Shown here in pieces: positions 31,452-56,195 of a DNA stretch of 64,000 nt. Every line of letters starts with the position of its first letter. Within the stretch, counting starts at the first letter, position 1. The notes beneath the pieces are model-generated. The model saw only the letters and a program-made list of their open reading frames with translations, made no database searches and had not been told where the DNA came from. Position numbers and translations under genes: made by a program. The stretch comes from Isurus oxyrinchus (lineage: Eukaryota): positions 164,362,001 to 164,426,000 of the forward strand of contig JANJGN010000009.1 in NCBI GenBank assembly GCA_026770705.1, read 5' to 3'.

Positions 31452-34400
31452 TAGAGTAATTATTTATGTTAAGTATAGAAAGGATGGATGATATTATATG
31501 GAGTCATTAAGTAAATTAGGTTAATTAATTTAATTAATTTAAAGTGCATGCTAATGCCATCGTTCCTATCTATTCAGTCATTCCATTTGGATGTAAAGTA
31601 ATGTGCAATTTATATGAAGATATAGCCATTGTCAGGAACAATAACTACTCCTCACAGCATCAGTGTCATTTTAGTATGAATTCTGCAAAGGGATGTACCA
31701 CCATCAAATCTGCAACAATTTACAGCTAAACAGTAAGTTAATTTAACACTACTCACTTTGACACTCATCATCTATTTTGTATTTGAAGACTCCATTAAAA
31801 TACAAATGGTTTCTTAACTTTTCCTACTGAGGGGAAAGGCAACTTGTTGGGTCTACAATTCAATTTATAAAATGCAGGTAAATATTGCTGCAAGCCAGTG
31901 TATATAGGATCAATTTTAATTTCTAGCTTATTGTTGATGAGCCACACCGTCAACGCAAAGATGATTTTAAAAAGCCACATTCTCTTTTTTTTAATATAAA
32001 TGGACTGCAGCAAAGGTGGCTCACCACTACCTTCTCAAGGGCAATTAAGGGTGGGCAACAAATGCTGGCCTAGCCAGTGGCCCTCATCCAGTGAAAGAAT
32101 AAATAAAAAATAATAGTTCCTCGACGCAAATTTTTTTTTGCTCCCAAACAGTTAATGAACAGGGCATATATAAACCATAGGAGAAGTCTACAGCTACAGG
32201 ACACAAGAGCAGAAGAGTTCAATCTGCCAAGTATCATTGTTGGTCTCTTATGCCTGAATGGTGTCATAATGAAATTCAGGCTATTGTGCTGGTATGGCTG
32301 AGAGTTGCAAAGGACTGTGTAGTAGAAACAATAGAAACTGTTTTCAACTACATGCAATGTGGCAGGAAATAGAAATAAACTGTAGTAATTATAGTTTTGA
32401 TAAACATAGGACTGTAGCTTTAAGGATAATCCTGTGTAGTAAGATCACATAAATGGTGTAAACCAATGAGTTAGCAGCATGGGGAATCTCTAGAGGAATT
32501 CTTCTTTAGTTATGGAGTTAGAAGTACACATGTTGCAGCTGCTGCTGCTTTGTAAATAAAGATCAATGTTTCCACCAAGAAAATTTGCCTAGAAAATCAA
32601 CCCTATAACAAACTGGCGATGAGGATAAATCAGATCCGGTATTGTCCCTCGGCCAGTGATTGTGAGTGTTCTATGTTCATTAAAAAGAAAGGAAGAAATG
32701 CCACAGTTTGGCAGAATCGATCCCTTTGAACCAGCCACAGATGACTAGTCTCAATATATAGGACATCTTGCATTCTACTTTCAAGCCAACAAACTCACGG
32801 GGGGAGGAAAAGAAGAGAGCAATTCTCCTGAGTATTTGTGGGAGCAAGACCTACAGTTTAATTCAAAGCTTGACAGGCCCCAGTGCCCCTGATTTGAAGA
32901 TCTTCAGTGAATTAGTAGACCTGGTTAAGGAACATTTCGAACCCAAGCCCTCAGTCACAATGCAGAGGTCCAGGTTCAATTCACGGAAGAGAGCCCCAGG
33001 GGAACCATTGCTGCCTACGTGACAAAATTAAAACAACTACTGGAATATTGTGACTTCAGTGAAACCCTGAATGATATGCTCAGGGATGGTTTGGTCTGTA
33101 GTGTGCAAGACGATGCTACTCAGCGAAGATTGCTGGCTGAAGTGGATCTTGATTTTAAGAAAGCATTAGAAATAGCGCTTGCGATGGAAAGCACTGTAAG
33201 GTATTCACAAGCGATTCAAGGGGTGCAAAATGACGCCATTTTCTAGTTGGGTAGGAACAGTCAGTCAAAAGTGGCGTGAAAAGCCGGGACTCTGCGGTGA
33301 AACAGGAAACAGACCCCGTTAACCAAAAATTTAGACGAAACAGCTTAGCAGCAAATTCAAAAGCTAATTTTTATCAACGTGGAAACAAAGAGATTAAATT
33401 AAACTGGTCCTAAATCTTCCAGTTGTGAACAGGAGGACTGCCAGAGCTGCTAAAAAAAATGACACTGTCTTCCAGGAACTGGGGAAAATCAAAGGCCTAC
33501 AGGCCAAGGTTTATGTGGACCCAGAAGCAACCCCTCGCTTCTTGAAGCAAGACCGGTGCCATGCGCCCTGAGAGAGAAGGTTGATGCTGAGTTGAACCGG
33601 CTAGAGAGGCTGGGTGTCATAAAAGCAGTTCGGTTCTCAGAGTGAGCAGCACCCATAGACCTTGTACTAAAACTGGATCGGTTCTGTGGGAACTATAAAC
33701 TAATGGTCAACAAAGCAGCCAAACTGGACAAGTTCCATATTCCCAAGATTGAAGACGTCTATGCTAAACTAGCAGGAGGGATAACGAATACAAAGCTAGA
33801 TATGAGTCATGCATATCAGCAACTGGAACTGGAAGATGCCTCCCGAGAATTTGTGACCATAAACACTCACAAAGGGTTATATCAATACATATTCCTACCC
33901 TTCGGTGTTTCTTCAGCCTGTGCCATTTTTCAGAGGATGATGGAGAGCTTGCAACAAGGACTACCTCAAGTTGTGGCCTATCTGGATGATGTACTAATAA
34001 CTGGATTCTCATAAAAGGAACACTTGGCTAATCTAGAGGAAGTCCTGAAATGACTTTTAGAAGCAGGAGTGGCCTAAAGAAGGAAAAATGCACTTTTCAG
34101 GCAAATGAAATAATTTATTTGGGTCACCGGATAGAGGACCAAACGTTACACTCTGTTGAAGGGAAGGTTAAAGCTATCAGAGAGACACCTGCACCTAAGA
34201 GCATCTCTGAACTAAATCATTTTTAGGGATGGTAAATTATTATGGCTGGTTTCTACCAAATTTATCAATGGTTCTAGCCCCTCCACATTCACTGCTAAAG
34301 AAAAACCAGCGTTGGGTTTGGAAGTCACCCCAAGAAGAAGCCTTCATGAAAGTCAAACAGCTCTTGCACTCTTCAAATTTGTTAGTGCACTACAACCCAA

Positions 34401-36388
34401 CAAAGGAATTGGTGCTAACCTGCGATGCGTCTCTGGAGTGAGAGCAGTACTACCTCACAAGATAGATGACGACGTAGAGAGGCTGGGAGGCTATGTATCC
34501 AGGAACTTACCACAGCCAATAAAGGATATTCTCAGATTGAAAAGGTAGGTTTGTCGATTATTCTTGGTGTAAAAAAATTCCATCAATACGTGCATGGACA
34601 ACATTTCACGATAATATCAGGCCACAAACCATTTTGGTGCCTGTTTAGTGAGGAAAAGGCTATCCCTCCCAAAGCTTCTGCATGAATTCAAAGATGGGCC
34701 CTAACTTTGGCGGTATATGAATACACCTTTGTGCATAGGCCAGGGATTCATATAGCCAATGCCGATGCCCTAAGTCGCTTTCCTTTGCAAGAGAGCAATG
34801 ACCATGTCCCAATTCCCCAAGAGCTCATATTAGTGATGAATTTCCTGGGTTCCTCACCAGTCTGTGCCAGGTAGATAAGAAACTGGATGAATCCTGTCTC
34901 AAGTGAGAGACCAAGTGTTACATGGATGGTCCCAGGAACCCGTCTCTGGTGAATTGAAGCCATTTTTCAACCAAAGGCACGAAATGAGCAGTCAAGATGG
35001 TATTCTATTATGGAGGCCACAAGTAGTAGCTCCTTCACAAGGAAGGAAGCCAATCTTAGTTGAGTTACACAGCGACTACCCGGGAACCTCCAGAATGAAG
35101 ACAATAATGCAAAGTTATCTTTGGTGGCCAGGAATGGACGGTGATATTGAGAAGGTGGTAAAACACTATGTGCAATGCCAACAGCTACAAAGGTTGCCGG
35201 AGGCAGCCCCATGACGTCCATGGGAGTGAGCTTGTGGACCCTGGGTGAGATTGCACATAGATTACAGTGGTCCTTTTCTTGGAACCATGTTTCTACTGAA
35301 TACAGAGGCTCATTCCAAGTAGTTAGATGTTTACGAGGTTGAGTTGCCAACTTCATGCGCTAATATGGAAAACCTATGCCAAAGCTTTGCTGTCCATGGA
35401 TTGCCAGAGGTAATCGTCTCAGGTAATGGTACTGCATTTACTAGCACTGAATTTCAAAAGTCTGTCTGCCTGAATGGTATCAACTACATGAAGACTGCAC
35501 CATACCATCCATCATCTAACGGACTGGCAGAAAGAGCAGTACAAACTTTTAAGGCGGCAATGAAAAAGTTAACAGGTGAATCATTGGAAACTAAACTTGC
35601 TCGTTTCCTATTTCACTACAGAACAACCTCACGACCTGTGTAAATATTGTAATGTCATGAGATAAATATCCTCATAAATACAAAATGTTAAAGGGGGAGG
35701 AATGTAGTAACTATAGTTTTGATAAACGTAGGACTGTGGCTTTAAGAATAATCCCAGGTTGTAAAATCACATCATCTGTGTAAACCAATGAATTAGCAGC
35801 GTGGGGAACCTCTAGGAAAGAATTCTTCTTTAGTTATAGAGTTGGATGCACATATGTAGCTGCTGCTGCTGTCTTGTTAATAAAGTTCAATATTTCCACC
35901 AAGAAAAGTTGCCTGGAAAATCAACTCTATAATAAAGCATACATCACGGCCAGCAAGAACTATTACAAAATAACTTCTCAAACCCCTCAGCAGGAAAAGT
36001 TAAGAAACCATAAACATTTTAATGGGTTCTTCAAATAACAAATAGATGATGAATGTCAGTGATCGAAGTGAGTCGTGCTAAATCAGCTGAGTGTTTAGCT
36101 GTAAATTGTTGCAGATTTGATGGTGGTATTTCCCTTTGCAGAATTAATACTCAAATGACACTAATGCTGTGAGGAGTTATTGTTCCTGACAATGGTTACA
36201 TCCTCATGCAGATTGTACATTATCTTATATCCGAATGGAATGACTGAATAGATAAGAACGTTAACATTAGCATGGTAGCTTAAATTAGATAAATGAATTA
36301 ATTTAAATTTAATTAATGACCGAACAACATCAAAATGCATAAAAATGATAAAAGTTATCCTTTCTATATTTAACATAAATAGTTACTG
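31452..36388. mobile_element. Old long-TIR (foldback-like) element; arms about 31452-31834 and 35983-36388
   Basis: About 380-bp diverged inverted repeats, e.g. ACCACCATCAAATCTGCAACAATTTACAGCTAAACA vs TGTTTAGCTGTAAATTGTTGCAGATTTGATGGTGGT; the interior holds a Gypsy insertion. Confidence 0.7.
32381..35934 (+). mobile_element. Ty3/Gypsy LTR retrotransposon, degenerate, both LTRs present
   Basis: LTRs 32381-32610 and 35703-35934 (TGTAG...TATAACA/TATAATA), PBS TGGCGATGAGG, PPT AAAGGGGGAGGAA; gag, RT (LPFGVSSA, YLDD), RNase H (CDAS) and integrase (PYHPSSNGLAERAVQT) with stops and frameshifts. Confidence 0.95.
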
Positions 36389-48324: not shown

Positions 48325-49071
48325 CTGTGTGTGTGTGTCACGGTGTTTGTGTGGAAATGTGCGTATGTGTGTGTGTGCAAGTGTGTGCATGTGTGTGCGT
48401 GTGCATGTGCGTGTGTATATGTGTGTGCGCGTGTGTGCGTGTTTGTGTGTGCACGTGTGTGTGTGTGAGCATATGTGCACGCGTGTGTATGTGTGTGCGC
48501 GTGAGCGTGGGCATCTCTGTGTGTGTGTATGTGTGTGTACACGAGCGCGGGGGTGTGTGTATTTGTGTGTATGTATGTGAGTGTGTGTCTGTGTGTGCAT
48601 GGGGATGTCTGTGTGTAGTGTGTGCACAGGAGTGCGTGTATGTNNNNNNNNNNNNNNNNNNNNNNNNNNNNNNNNNNNNNNNNNNNNNNNNNNNNNNNNN
48701 NNNNNNNNNNNNNNNNNNNNNNNNNNNNNNNNNNNNNNNNNNNNNNNNNNNNNNNNNNNNNNNNNNNNNNNNNNNNNNNNNNNNNNNNNNNNNNNNNNNN
48801 NNNNNNNNNNNNNNNNNNNNNNNNNNNNNGTGTATGTGTGCGGGCATGTGTGTGTATATGCGTNNNNNNNNNNNNNNNNNNNNNNNNNNNNNNNNNNNNN
48901 NNNNNNNNNNNNNNNNNNNNNNNNNNNNNNNNNNNNNNNNNNNNNNNNNNNNNNNNNNNNNNNNNNNNNNNNNNNNNNNNNNNNNNNNNNNNNNNNNNNN
49001 NNNNNNNNNNNNNNNNNNNNNNNNNNNNNNNNNNNNNNNNNNNNNNNNNNNNNNNNNNNNNNNNNNNNNNN
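48325..49071. repeat. Imperfect (TG)n microsatellite with assembly gaps (N)
   Basis: Directly visible. Confidence 0.95.
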
Positions 49072-50715: not shown

Positions 50716-52209
50716 CCCACTGTGCCCCTTGAAACCACCCCTCGGGCTATTCCAGTTTGCCCATTTAATCCCTAACTTTGATGAAGAAGAGGTGGACGCC
50801 TATTTTTTTTATCTCTTTGGAAAGATTAGCACAGCAGTTAAAGTGGTGGGCCCCCTGCTGTTGCAGCGTAAGCTCACAGGATTTACCCCCCTCTTGCCTG
50901 AGGAAAGTGCGACCAACCATGGGGAAGCAAAACGGATTATTTTAAGTGCGTAGCAGTAAGTGCCGGAGGCGCACTTTCAGAAATTCCGCACCTCAACAAA
51001 CTGACTGACCCGACGTGCCTGAAATTTGAACGGCTTAAGCAGCTCGTTTTTGACCGGTGGGTACTGGCACTTAAAATTGAGGCCGCCTACAAAAACCTTT
51101 GTGAAACAACCCTCCGCTCACAGCCTCCATCCCCTTCCCGGTAAGAACTCACCTAGGGGAACAGAGAGCAGCAGGAGCCGGGCAGGCAGCAGACATGGCC
51201 GATGATTAGGAGCTGCTCCGCAATCCCTCATCCCAAAGGAGACCCTTCCCTAGTTACCACCACCCCCCCTCCCTCCCCCCCACCACTTCCCCACCACCTG
51301 AGAAGGATAGAAGGCGGGAGAGTGATAGGAAACGGAGCATCCATGGGAGAGAATGGGCAGCTGGAAACATAGGTGCACACCTCAGCTCAGAAAGGACAGA
51401 GCTAAGAGGAAGTGTGAGGAGTGAAAACCTGTGTGTTTTAACCTCCAAGAGGCAGGAGGCCTCCGTGCTGATTGCTGAAGGTTATGGGAAAAACCCGTGG
51501 GATTTGTAGGGAAAAAAAAAAAAAACCCTCACAGGAGCGGGGAGTCCGATAGAGAGCAGGGCAGACCAGGCTGCGGGCCTGACTACCGCAGCAAATCCCG
51601 GCGACTGTGGCCGGGATCTTCGGGCCCCGTCGTGGGTGGGACTCGCCATGGGGGAGGCGCCCCCCCCCCCCCCTCCCCCCCCCCCCCCCCCCCAGCCGGA
51701 GGCCCCACTGACTTGCGGTGGGACCGGGAGATCACAGCGCTGGGTGGGTGCAGGAAATCCTACCCTGTGAGCACGGGTGAGTTTTAAAAAGTCCCTGAGA
51801 GTTACGAGGACTTTGTATCAGAAGGAAGCATGGTCACATTACCCCAGGGCAAGACGAGTAAACCTATACTGAGGGATACAGGAGCCAGTCAAACACTACA
51901 GCTGGGAAAAGGCATGACCTTTCCACCAGAGAACGCTTTGGCTGGTAGTGATGCTTTACGAGGTCTACCAGTTTCTCAAAACTTTGAATCAAGGCAGCTG
52001 TGCTGTCAAACTTCGAATCAATCCATTGGTTTTACTCCCACATGTGGATAAGAGGATTGCCAAGGTGTTGGTATAGGGTATTGAAGGTGGGTACAGTAGG
52101 GGTTCAATGTGGGCCTCACCCACATCTACCAATTCATCCTCACTGTTCCTCTCGTCCTCCAGAACTGTTGTTATTGGACAGACCATTAACTGCTTGCCCC
52201 CTTCTCGGC

Positions 52210-55200
52210 TGTGATATTGTTTTATCATGTTGACAAGACGCAGCCAATAGAAGAGTGGCGCAGGCTAGCTCTGTGGTCAGTAGTCTATAGTTAGAACCAG
52301 TAGTGTAGAGACAGGGTTTTTGAGTTGAAAGCACACAAGTGTAGCTGCTGAGTTCCTTTATAAATAAACAGAATGTGTTCTACCTGAGAACTGTCTGCTG
52401 ACCTACTCTCTCTATTGTACCAAGTTGGCCATCCCAAAATAAGCATCCAACCGGGATACATAAGCCCAAACAAACTGGCGACTAGGATCCGACAAACTGG
52501 CAACCAGGAAAAAGCAAGAAAAAAGTGAGGAAAAAGCAAAGGTAAAATAAATTACTTTTGAGAATAAAACAAGTTAATGAAAGAAATCAACAGAAAGAAA
52601 ATCGGGCTGTACCTCGTACGGCAATTGAAAGTAGAATTTCCGTCCTAATCGTCGAAGTAGAATGCCGCAATCCAGCCATGGACAATTGGTCTCATTATAT
52701 TGAACATTCTTTTTCTAAGCAAACGACATTGCGGGGGAAGAGAAGAGGCGAGCGATCCTCATATCCACACATGGGAGTAAAACCTATGGATTGATTTGAA
52801 GCTTGACAGCACAGGTGCCTTGATTTGAAAAGTTTTGAGGAACTAGCGGACCTCATAAAGCATCACTACCAGCAAAAGCCCTCGCTAACAATGCAATGGT
52901 TCAAATTTAACTCAAGAGATAGAGCCTCGGGGGGAGACAGTTGCTTGTTATATGGCAAGTTTGAAACAGTTAACAGAACATTGTGAGTTTGGTACACCTT
53001 TAAATGACATGCTTAGAGATTGTTTAGTGTGCGGTGTGAATGAGAACACGATTCAGAAGAGATAATTGTCTGAAACAAATTTGGATTTTATGAAGGCCCA
53101 GAGATAGCACTGGCCATGGAAAGTGCATTAAGGGATTGGAAAGCCATAAAGTGAGTGCAAAATGGCGCCATCCTCCACATTGGGCAGGAAGCCCCAGCCA
53201 AAAAGGGCGCGAAAATGCAAGGCTCCACCGAGAAGCGGGAAATAGCAGACAAATAATAATAAATGACTTAGCAGAGAAAACATGGAATAATGGCAATGGA
53301 GGTGGAAGCAGACAACCTTATACTGATTGGCAATTTTAAAAAATCGAATACTTTTATTGTCATCAAAACAGACACCTTCTGAGACAGTGTAAGGAAAGAA
53401 TCAGGCAGACTTTCAAACAAAAGAAAAAACCCCATGAGATCTACAATGTAGAAGAGCCTGAAGTAACAGATTCAGATACTTATTCATTGTATAACTTGGA
53501 GGTTGGGAAAACAGAACCAATCTATGTAACAATGAAGGTAAATGACAGATCTATTAGAATAGGAGCTTCCACTACAATGATTGGTGAACACACCTCGAAA
53601 TATCTGAACATAATTAAATTTGGAAGAAACAGTTGCAAATTGAGAACTTACATGGGTGAAGACATCCAAGTCAAAGGCATAAGCAGAATTACTGTCAATT
53701 ACAGAAGCCAATCAGCAAAGCTACAAAGTTTGTATTGACAGGCAGAGGACCAAGCGTACTAGGGTGAAACTGGCTGAGGGAAATCAACCTTGATTTGTCA
53801 CAGAGATTCTAAAAGGAAGCTGAAAACATTCCTGTTTTGGAAAAGGCGTGTGTAAAGACCCAACAACCTAAAGAAATGCAGGATTTTTCCATCAAAGGCA
53901 TGGTAGGACAGCAAAAAGAAATAGGAAAGACCGTCCTGAGGGACAGAGTCCGGGTTAAGGTGAGCAACCTCCAAAAGAAAAGTGAAAACCTACTGACGGA
54001 CCTTCACACACAACCAGTTTCCCTCCTGTCTAAGCATGTACCTCTGGAAAAGAAACAGAAAGAGTTCTACACTTCTCTGAGTGAAATGAAGGATGAGTTG
54101 GCAGCGAAGACCCAACAATGTTTAATTTTCCAGGAGGCAGTACGCCAATGCAAGAAAGAGATGGAAGAGCTGAAGAAACAGCTGTATGAAGCTAAAGAGG
54201 CTTTGAGACAAAAGTTGCATAATTTTCCAAGAATCAGGCAAATGATAAAATTCTGGGAAACTCAACCACTGAGTTCACTCAAGACGAGCTTGCCTCTGAG
54301 AGTAGACTGGCCAATAGGGAAGTCGAAAAGAAGACCGAGAATAAAGTCAGTGTCAGAAAGAAGAAAACCCATAACAAGAAGACACAGAAACACAAATAAT
54401 ACTGTTGATCCTGGCAGCGTATGAGTATGCTTTCATCCTTAGGCCTGGAAATCAAATTGCAAACATTGATGCACTGAGTTGTTTGCCCTTACAAGGAAAA
54501 GGTGTAGATGTTCCAGTTCTACAAGAGCTATTTTTATTGTTGAGCTTTTTAGATTCATCACCGGTATGTGCGAGACAGATCAGAGCCTGGACAAGTCGGG
54601 ACCCAGTCTTATCCAAAGTACAAGAACAAGTTCTTCGTGGTTGGTCACAAGAACAGGAATCTGACGAAAGTCACAGCCAGGATGGTATCTTATTGTGGGG
54701 AACACAAGCGATTGTTCCTCCAAAAGGAAGAAAGCCATTGTTAATTGAACTACATAGCACACATTCAGGAATTTTCTGAATGAAGACCTTAGCACACAGC
54801 TATCTATGGTGGCCTGGGATGAATGGGGAAATAGAGAATTTAGTGAAGAATTGTGTGCAATGTCAGAAAGTTCAAAAGTTACCTCCAACAGTTCCGTTAC
54901 ACCCTTGGGAGTGGCCAGGAAAGCCAGACAACATCTGGAAAGGAGGTTCCTGACAAAGCATCTGAAGCTGTAGAACTGAGATGTTCCACAGGCATAAGGA
55001 AACCCCCAGAAAGACTGAATTTGTAAATTACTTATCTGCGTAAATAATTTGGTATTTTGAGAAAATTATAATTGTAACTGTAAAATGTATTTCTGAGTAA
55101 AGGGGGAGGGATCTGGTAATCTGCTGTGTAATATACCTTTAAGAAGAACGTTATGGTGGAAGATCACATGATCTTAGTATCCACTAGAAGAGTACCACGG

Positions 55201-55425
55201 GCTACCTCTGTGATCAGTAGTCTATAGTTAGAGTCAGTAGTGTAGGGTCAGGGTTTGAGTTGTAAGCACAAAAGCGTAGCTGCTGAATACCTTTGTAAAT
55301 AAACAGAATGTGTTCACCTAAGAAATGTCTCCTGACCTACTCTGCCTATTGTACCAACTTGGCCAATCCAAAATAAGCGTGCAACCCAGATCCAAAAGTC
55401 CCAACAAACCAGTGACTAGGATCCA
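52210..55425 (+). mobile_element. Non-autonomous Gypsy derivative (LTR-gag-protease-[coiled-coil]-RNase H end/integrase start-LTR)
   Basis: LTR copies at about 52210-52472 and 55112-55405, PBS TGGCGACTAGGATCC, PPT AAAGGGGGAGGGA; gag and integrase N-terminus are homologous to the 32381 element; RT is absent. Confidence 0.85.
53813..54399 (+). pseudogene. Coiled-coil, Lys-rich ORF replacing RT inside the Gypsy derivative
   Basis: ORF 53837-54424 (LSEMKDELAAKTQQ..EAVRQCKKEMEELKKQLYEAKEALRQKL) is in the same frame as the protease end; an alternative frame from about 54223 ends RKKKTHNKKTQKHK* at 54397-54399. Confidence 0.55.
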
Positions 55426-56195
55426 ACAATAGTCTAATGTACATTCCAGAGGAATTCAATTAGTCCGTGTTATTGGTTTTAGAACAGGTAATTGTATTTT
55501 GATGTCTCATTTTAGAAACATTTGCAATGTTTCAGGATAGTGTAAAGCCAACAGGAGATGGAGTCTTTCACACCTCCCAGGGTGTCTGTTCTGTTTCATC
55601 CCACTTGGTGGAATGCAGGTTTATATATTGTAGCCATCTGGCAATCCTCCATTGCTTTTAGAGGGTTTTGGTTTATTTTTTAAAATCCAACCAGAAAAGG
55701 AAAAAATATAAATTGTATCTTTAAAAAAAAGAGGCAAATCCTCATAACAGCTGCCACTTTTCTGTTTTCATGTCAGCAGAGCAGTTTTTTTTTCAAAGCA
55801 AATAGGAACTCCCTCCCTAACAGCACTGTGGATGTACCTGCACCACAGGGACTGCAGCGGTTCAAGAAGGCAGCTCCACCACCGCCTTCTCAAGGGCAAT
55901 TAAGGTTGGGCAATAAATGCTGGCCCAGCCAGCGAAGCCAAAATCCCGTGAATGAATAATTTTTTTTTAAATGCTGGAAATCTGAAACAAAACCAGTAGA
56001 TGCTGGAAATACGCAGCAGGTCAGGCTGTATCTGTGGAGAGAGAAAGAGAGTTAACATTTCAGGTCGATGGTGTTCTGATGAAGGGCTGTTGACCTCACG
56101 CATTACCTTTTGCTCTCCAAAAATGCTGCCTGACCTGCTGAGCATTTCCAATGTTTTCTGTTTTGAGAAAACATATGGAAGAATTGTGAATGTGT

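What the first reader, a model, noticed from the sequence alone, without database searches (positions are those of the whole stretch)
53741..54430. Gypsy element whose reverse transcriptase is replaced by an in-frame coiled-coil protein
Seen: after the protease end (GRGPSVLG*NWLREINLDL, frame of 53741) the RT and most of RNase H are missing. About 600 bp of unrelated sequence takes their place and continues in the same frame (stops only at 53765 and 53810). It encodes a heptad-rich helix and, after an apparent frameshift near 54222, a Lys-rich NLS-like tail ending at TAA 54397. Pol homology resumes immediately (LILAAYEY...NIDALSCLP). The related element at 32381 has a normal RT at this position. 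Inference: a non-autonomous family that captured or evolved a new module to make a Gag-PR-coiled-coil fusion, possibly a parasite or interfering factor for the autonomous partner.
Basis: partly seen in the sequence, partly recalled or inferred. Interest (0 to 1): 0.7.

Follow-up and report, generated by a model that had tools for sequence, protein, structure and literature searches.

The report
Shark retrotransposon family carrying captured UACA
This is a dead copy of a shark jumping-gene family in which the copying enzyme is replaced, in reading frame, by a piece of the host gene UACA; the family multiplied to an estimated several hundred copies, likely by borrowing the enzyme from intact relatives, and likely kept making the stolen protein piece while it spread.

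Summary
It is a fragment of the host gene UACA: residues ~909-1026 joined in frame to ~1177-1210 (white-shark numbering). It lies in the protease frame and replaces RT and nearly all of RNase H. It is not single-copy. Read depth over the cargo is 45-546 where one copy would give about 0.3-0.6. Paralogous contigs 13-15% different bridge the 5' junction (one species) and the 3' junction (two species). Two basking-shark proteins share the same internal deletion. The basic tail is real, and its last 15 codons overprint the RNase H end in a shifted frame. This copy is dead: gag stops, no protease catalytic motif, no integrase core, LTRs 85% identical. The kind is known: LTR-mediated capture of host mRNA (Tan 2016; maize Bs1; crocodilian ERVs). 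The donor, the scale and the long-lived open frame were not found in my searches. Selection on the cargo frame is suggested (no stop despite about 60% amino-acid divergence) but not proven. The interference idea is untested.

The parts
52244..52494 (+). 5' LTR, lacking its first ~70 nt
   Evidence: 85% identical to the 3' LTR over 249 columns, K2P 0.167; a run contig continues upstream with the sequence seen at the start of the 3' LTR
52473..52509 (+). two tandem primer-binding-site-like motifs; the first is also present at the end of the 3' LTR
   Evidence: repeat family D5; PBS label recalled and from similarity to element B
52713..53215 (+). gag, broken (4 stops in 164 codons, at least 3 frame changes)
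   Evidence: tblastn and blastn to element B gag; stop count
53472..53800 (+). aspartic protease remnant; catalytic D-T-G motif (recalled) not present; frame change before the C-terminal GPSVLG*NWL
   Evidence: Atlas nearest clusters RVP_2/Asp_protease_2, score 0.93, a lead; no Pfam hit; sequence
53741..53836 (+). protease end and linker, same frame as the cargo, stops at 53765 and 53810
53837..54178 (+). captured UACA segment 1 (aa ~909-1026), coiled coil, no stop
   Evidence: 31-40% identity to five shark UACAs, E 1e-16 to 3e-25 pairwise; alignment
54179..54285 (+). captured UACA segment 2 (aa ~1177-1210) after an in-frame loss of ~150 UACA codons; contains this copy's frameshift (between 54214 and 54229)
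   Evidence: same jump in P0001 and P0002 and in the window
54286..54399 (+). tail ending in a Lys-rich stretch and TAA 54397; first part possibly UACA ~1227-1248 (weak); 54352-54399 overprints the RNase H end
   Evidence: gapless 38-aa match to the P0001 tail up to the stop; 24/51 DNA identity to element B at the anchored offset, shuffle p 0.0007
54405..54929 (+). pol remnant: RNase H end, connection and integrase H2C2 zinc finger; 1 stop in 175 codons; private 30-nt in-frame deletion at ~54670
   Evidence: tblastn to B; Integrase_H2C2 E 2.9e-9
54921..54939 (+). site where the integrase core is missing from this copy
   Evidence: loose ends at 54921 (55 contigs of X5) and 54939 (476 reads of X21); homology to B stops at 54916
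55099..55111 (+). polypurine tract
   Evidence: sequence
55112..55428 (+). 3' LTR

Best explanation
A shark Ty3/Gypsy element carries a coiled-coil piece of host UACA in place of RT and RNase H, likely gained by two template switches onto co-packaged UACA mRNA; it spread to an estimated hundreds of copies, likely with a helper's RT, while its master copies likely kept translating a Gag-protease-cargo protein whose helix and basic tail would help it co-assemble into the helper's particles. SHOWN: the donor is UACA; replacement rather than insertion; sense orientation and protease frame in this copy; many diverged copies with the same junctions; a shared 150-codon in-frame deletion; a shared stop position with P0001; this copy is dead. 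INFERRED: RNA-level capture, helper dependence, selection on the open frame. UNTESTED: any role of the protein. The identity (captured UACA in a multi-copy non-autonomous Gypsy family) I put at about 0.95; the confidence below is for the whole mechanism, including a selected cargo protein.
For: Donor: a profile of the cargo hits shark UACA at E 1e-50 to 1e-33 (5 of 8 hits); P0002 is 64% identical to white-shark UACA over 152 columns, and the cargo copies form one clade (support 98) inside the shark UACA tree. Family: depth 45-546 over the cargo against 69-935 over the rest of the internal region; 56-1744 and 88-1599 single-copy equivalents per bin in two species; among the 24 contig pieces printed, 1 paralog bridges the 5' junction and 4 bridge the 3' junction, all 13-15% different. 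A white-shark gene model joins a gag piece (51% to element B) to the cargo. Open frame: 0 stops in 182 codons although the copy is only 32-41% identical to shark UACAs. After removing post-insertion decay, 39 to 109 amino-acid changes predict 2.7 to 7.6 stops if neutral, P(0) 0.065 to 0.0005. The three deletions visible against UACA in the protein alignment keep the frame. The same anatomy is described by Tan et al. (passages).
Against: Counting only residues demonstrably shared by copies gives 12 changes and P(0 stops) about 0.43. The pol remnant behind the stop is almost as open (1 stop in 175 codons), which this model does not explain. The cargo evolves far faster than UACA (root-to-tip 0.36-0.93 against about 0.08-0.16), so its sequence is weakly constrained. 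This copy has two stops before the cargo. Only 2 stand-alone proteins and no Gag-PR fusion are annotated. Both the annotated proteins and this finding were picked for being open. No UACA DNA was available, so intron loss and junction microhomology are untested.
Confidence: 0.5

Rival explanations
1. Same origin, but the cargo is a neutral passenger: the element spread because it kept LTRs, packaging signals and gag, and the open frame reflects chance and ascertainment.
For: Only 12 shared derived residues, P(0 stops) 0.43; post-insertion P(0) 0.11; fast amino-acid change; a subfamily lacking 162 nt across the 5' junction exists in both species; Tan et al. report 14 of 21 older LTR retrocopies disabled.
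Against: Tree-based estimates predict several stops; the deletions seen keep the frame, including the 162-nt one; the stop position is shared with P0001.
Confidence: 0.22
2. The cargo was kept as a frame-preserving spacer: the founding element read Gag-protease-cargo-integrase and supplied its own integrase, so only the frame mattered; the basic tail and stop came later in one subfamily.
For: Explains an open but fast-evolving cargo, the well-kept pol remnant (1 stop in 175 codons, 54% identical to B), and the many relatives that continue into the integrase core. P0002, the copy closest to UACA, ends differently, right at the 3' junction.
Against: The window copy and P0001 share a stop before pol resumes in another frame. 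The pol-frame reading of 54351-54402 is degraded and holds a stop. Short reads cannot show whether integrase-bearing relatives also carry the cargo.
Confidence: 0.2
3. The cargo serves the host or fights the helper: a dominant-negative Gag fusion, a decoy for UACA partners, or a source of small RNAs against UACA.
For: Two loci are annotated as proteins in basking shark, one with two accessions; purifying selection on captured ORFs is reported for crocodilian ERVs.
Against: This copy is broken throughout; P0001 and P0002 are single-member clusters only 56% alike, with no conserved orthologue found.
Confidence: 0.06
4. A single-copy secondary insertion, or a coiled coil that arose de novo.
For: The first protein search found nothing and Pfam gives only generic coiled-coil hits.
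Against: UACA homology, a shared internal deletion, high depth and bridged junctions; pol sequence is lost, not pushed apart.
Confidence: 0.02

Closest known systems
LTR-mediated retrocopies of animals (Tan et al. 2016, PMC5131818; passages read)
   Same: Host coding sequence replaces part of the internal ORFs, sense strand, often in the parental frame; the chimera can retrotranspose again as a non-autonomous element.
   Different: In the passages seen, two Drosophila cases have more than one insertion site; here depth implies hundreds of copies, the cargo has evolved inside the element (internal deletion, new tail), and relatives occur in several sharks. Microhomology was not testable here.
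Maize Bs1 (as described in PMC5131818, passage)
   Same: LTR element carrying host gene pieces, all copies sharing switch points.
   Different: 1-5 copies, three donor genes, plant; here one donor and far more copies.
Crocodilian CrocERV29 (KIT-ligand) and CrocERV31 (nectin3) captures (PMC4299795; passages)
   Same: Old vertebrate LTR retroelements multiplied with a host ORF, shared indels among copies, ORF better kept than expected.
   Different: Retroviruses rather than Gypsy; 9 and 6 copies; cargo is a separate ORF beside or instead of env, with pol kept; purifying selection was measured there, not here.
Extra ORFs of bdelloid LTR elements (PMC5408684; passages)
   Same: Acquired ORFs, some with coiled coils, in Gypsy-like elements.
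   Different: ORF3 lies after an intact pol and is shared among retroelements; here a recent host gene replaces RT.

Membership tests
Ty3/Gypsy LTR retrotransposon | two direct LTRs with PBS and PPT | tested here: met
   LTRs 85% identical; PBS-like motifs and PPT in the sequence; 5' LTR truncated
Ty3/Gypsy LTR retrotransposon | order gag-PR-RT-RNase H-integrase | tested here: met
   gag, PR remnant, RNase H end and integrase zinc finger lie in that order and are collinear with element B, whose RT-RH-INT order is shown by Pfam
Ty3/Gypsy LTR retrotransposon | aspartic protease with catalytic motif | tested here: inconclusive
   Atlas lead only; no Pfam hit; motif absent from this copy
Ty3/Gypsy LTR retrotransposon | RT phylogeny; target-site duplication | not testable with these tools
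   RT is absent; the 5' end of the 5' LTR is missing
LTR-mediated retrocopy (Tan et al. 2016) | host coding sequence replaces internal ORF sequence, sense strand | tested here: met
LTR-mediated retrocopy (Tan et al. 2016) | intron loss (RNA intermediate) | not testable with these tools
   no UACA gene DNA; the segment may lie within one large exon (recalled for mammalian UACA)
LTR-mediated retrocopy (Tan et al. 2016) | microsimilarity at the switch points | not testable with these tools
   needs UACA mRNA and helper DNA
LTR-mediated retrocopy (Tan et al. 2016) | no poly(A) or target duplication at the cargo edges | tested here: inconclusive
   no poly(A) run and no repeat of 14 nt or more pairing the junctions; shorter duplications not searched
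LTR-mediated retrocopy (Tan et al. 2016) | secondary amplification with shared switch points | tested here: met
   depth and junction-bridging paralogs; shared deletion in P0001 and P0002
non-autonomous LTR element | autonomous helper with matching LTRs | not tested
   no genome held; blastn finds no match to element B's LTRs

The most novel reading that the evidence does not exclude
Sharks and rays host a class of helper-dependent Gypsy elements that repeatedly and independently replaced Pol with host coiled coils fused in frame behind the protease (UACA here; SH3KBP1, CLIP1, myosin rod, EDC4 and SUDS3 in unchecked notes of this scan), because a coiled coil in the Pol position is selected: it lets the parasite's Gag fusion oligomerise and take space in the helper's particle.
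Probability: 0.3. Interest if true: 0.78.

Novelty: new member of a known kind. Interest (0 to 1): 0.5.

Why it matters
It gives a named donor and dissectable junctions for host-gene capture by a vertebrate Gypsy element that then spread roughly a hundredfold beyond the cases in the passages I read (1-9 copies). Hundreds of dated copies make selection on a captured cargo directly measurable. It also matters for annotation: such copies appear as 'uncharacterized' shark genes and inside an MHC class I model. A recent survey that ties vertebrate retrocopy numbers to non-LTR elements lists SUDS3 and MIPOL1 among the top donors in cartilaginous fishes (bioRxiv 10.64898/2026.06.26.734816, passages); LTR-borne cargo families could account for part of such counts (inference).

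Tried and rejected
No genome is held, so there is no copy-by-copy BLAST, dN/dS or synteny. The single-sequence protein search found 0 of 72 candidates. Pfam gave only sub-threshold coiled-coil hits for the cargo, and the Atlas only generic coiled coils, first a CCDC144C cluster, which was rejected as donor. Scans of metagenome contigs (366 pattern matches) and viral contigs (268) confirmed none. No RNA holder listed: four runs are only guessed to be RNA, so expression is not claimed. A UACA origin for the whole tail was not established: the P0001 tail ranks the collinear window first in 3 of 5 UACAs, but the P0002 and window tails do so in 0 of 5. DNA alignment of the 5' junction to element B scored below shuffles (44 against a maximum of 49), so that junction is placed by protein homology only (~53830-53850). 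Element B was rejected as the helper. The branching order among galeomorph UACAs and the cargo is unresolved (support 57 and 35; the second tree left out bird, catfish and P0008; no carpet-shark UACA). Not-in-print claim: no paper held UACA + retrotransposon + shark; the listings showed none on this family; PMC3597677 has 0 occurrences of UACA or shark in its main text. Supplements were not read, and those of the bioRxiv survey are closed; they may list UACA. Subscription journals, Repbase and Dfam were not searchable. Sequence and place look-ups of earlier findings were empty. No complex prediction was run.

Full report
Observation. The finding lies in a 3.2-kb LTR element (52244-55428). Its LTRs are 85% identical over 249 columns, K2P 0.167; the 5' LTR lacks its first ~70 nt. 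The frame of 53741 has stops at 53765 and 53810 and is then open to 54422. Against element B (32381-35936), homology covers gag and resumes at 54405 with the RNase H end and the integrase zinc finger; B has RT, RNase H and integrase domains by Pfam. The helix is heptad-periodic over its C-terminal two thirds, and a relative folds as two long helices.

What the insert is. Direct searches gave nothing or generic coiled coils. A full phmmer scan gave 2 proteins, both 'uncharacterized' basking-shark proteins. A profile of these two and the window's frame found 8 longer proteins: five shark UACAs (E 1e-50 to 1e-33), a bird UACA, a catfish protein with the same ankyrin domains, and one white-shark gene model. 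The cargo equals UACA residues ~909-1026 joined directly to ~1177-1210. The ~150 skipped codons are missing at the same place in P0001 and P0002 and in the window, so the three descend from one capture. P0001 continues into the window's shifted frame and matches it without gaps up to the stop, which confirms the frameshift and the tail. The last 15 codons of the tail lie on DNA homologous to the RNase H end of element B: 24 of 51 identical at the offset fixed by the downstream match, against 9 of 51 just upstream and 30-33 of 51 downstream; shuffle p 0.0007; 8 of 3505 other offsets do as well; the start point was chosen after seeing the alignment. The 'NLS-like' end is therefore a shifted reading of pol that became richer in lysine. 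Whether it acts as an NLS or binds RNA is untested.

Family. No genome is held, so I laid 4 of 24 listed runs on 52100-55099 at 80% likeness. In 1,904 million raw letters the depth over the cargo is 45-546 (mean 212), against means of 394 over gag-protease and 563 over the pol remnant. For an assumed genome of 3-6 Gb this is 335-669 copies on average (71-1721 by bin). In contig runs of two species, the deletion private to this locus (54670) is covered by one contig at depth 17-18. Dividing by that gives 56-1744 and 88-1599 per bin; the tool warns that summed contig depth is not a copy number, so these are orders of magnitude. The same single contigs suggest that this insertion is shared by both species. 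Of the 24 pieces printed (30,546 not shown), one paralog bridges the 5' junction and four bridge the 3' junction, each 13-15% different from the window. A white-shark model, LOC121291255, joins a gag piece to the cargo between two MHC class I units; this is probably an annotation artefact, but it places gag before the cargo in a further shark. What share of cargo copies lies in elements was not measured. The cargo copies form one clade (98) among the galeomorph UACAs, after the split from Heterodontus (83-85); finer order is unresolved.

State of this copy. Gag has 4 stops in 164 codons and several frame changes; the protease end has 2 stops and its catalytic motif (recalled) is absent; the cargo has one frameshift and no stop in 182 codons; the pol remnant has 1 stop in 175 codons. 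The integrase core is missing here, but many relatives run on at those points. Loose ends at 54205-54206 in three of four runs suggest that many copies differ from this one at the frameshift.

Mechanism. Shown: donor, replacement, orientation, frame in this copy, amplification, shared deletion. Inferred from established retroelement biology and Tan et al. (passages): template switching onto co-packaged mRNA and later copying by a helper's RT. Intron loss and microhomology could not be tested, so DNA-level capture is not excluded (about 0.15). On selection: the copy is 32-41% identical to shark UACAs with no stop. Using a nonsense:missense ratio of 0.07 from its own codons, the changes that predate insertion predict 2.7-7.6 stops (P 0.065-0.0005), and the visible deletions keep the frame. 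Against this, strictly shared changes number only 12 (P 0.43), the cargo evolves several times faster than UACA, the pol remnant behind the stop is nearly as open, and open copies are the ones that get noticed. I commit to a translated, selected Gag-protease-cargo product in the master copies (0.5), ahead of a neutral passenger (0.22), a spacer that once carried the frame into integrase (0.2) and a host-serving or interfering role (0.06).

Comparison and novelty. It works like an LTR-mediated retrocopy that became a non-autonomous element; the features that could be tested are met, and those needing UACA DNA were not testable. Bs1 has 1-5 copies, the crocodilian captures 9 and 6. No paper on a UACA-bearing shark element turned up. 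Unchecked notes of this scan describe like families in rays and sharks carrying SH3KBP1, CLIP1, myosin rod, EDC4 and SUDS3; I verified only that a preprint lists SUDS3 among top retrocopy donors of cartilaginous fishes. That most of these donors are coiled coils is partly from the notes and partly recalled, and may reflect what readers notice. These notes are leads for the novel case, not support.

Verdict. A real, well-identified host-gene capture that multiplied widely: a new member of a known kind, unusual in scale, with a testable open question about selection on the cargo. Interest 0.5.

Noticed in passing
window 51928-52200, minus strand: An inverted gag N-terminal fragment, 87% identical to this element's gag (52752-52879), lies just upstream of the truncated 5' LTR; a local rearrangement may have removed the LTR start.
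   Followed up: partly
window 50900-51930: Frames that look like gag and protease (ILRDTGASQT) of another, unrelated Gypsy lineage; label recalled, no Pfam hit.
   Followed up: partly
window 52473-52509 and 55404-55428: Both LTRs end with a copy of the PBS-like motif, so the family LTR seems to have absorbed a primer-binding site.
   Followed up: no
window 32381-35936: Element B is decayed, has LTRs 86% identical, and appears to lack most of its protease: about 100 nt separate the gag match from the protease end, against about 565 in element A.
   Followed up: partly
window 52330-55099: Run X1, only guessed to be RNA, holds this exact copy (contigs with 0-3 differences) from inside the 5' LTR onward, with no depth in the 100 nt before the LTR, and a paralog contig at higher depth joining 53819 to 54051. 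A lead for LTR-driven transcription, not shown.
   Followed up: no
window 53807-53970: A variant skipping 162 nt across the 5' junction occurs in contigs of both species (3 and 2 contigs) and in one raw read, pointing to a shorter subfamily.
   Followed up: no
P0008 residues 345-444: White-shark model LOC121291255 fuses two MHC class I units through gag and UACA-cargo sequence, probably a mis-annotation caused by a family copy in an MHC class I cluster.
   Followed up: partly
window 48644-49071: Two runs of N (394 bases in all): assembly gaps.
   Followed up: no
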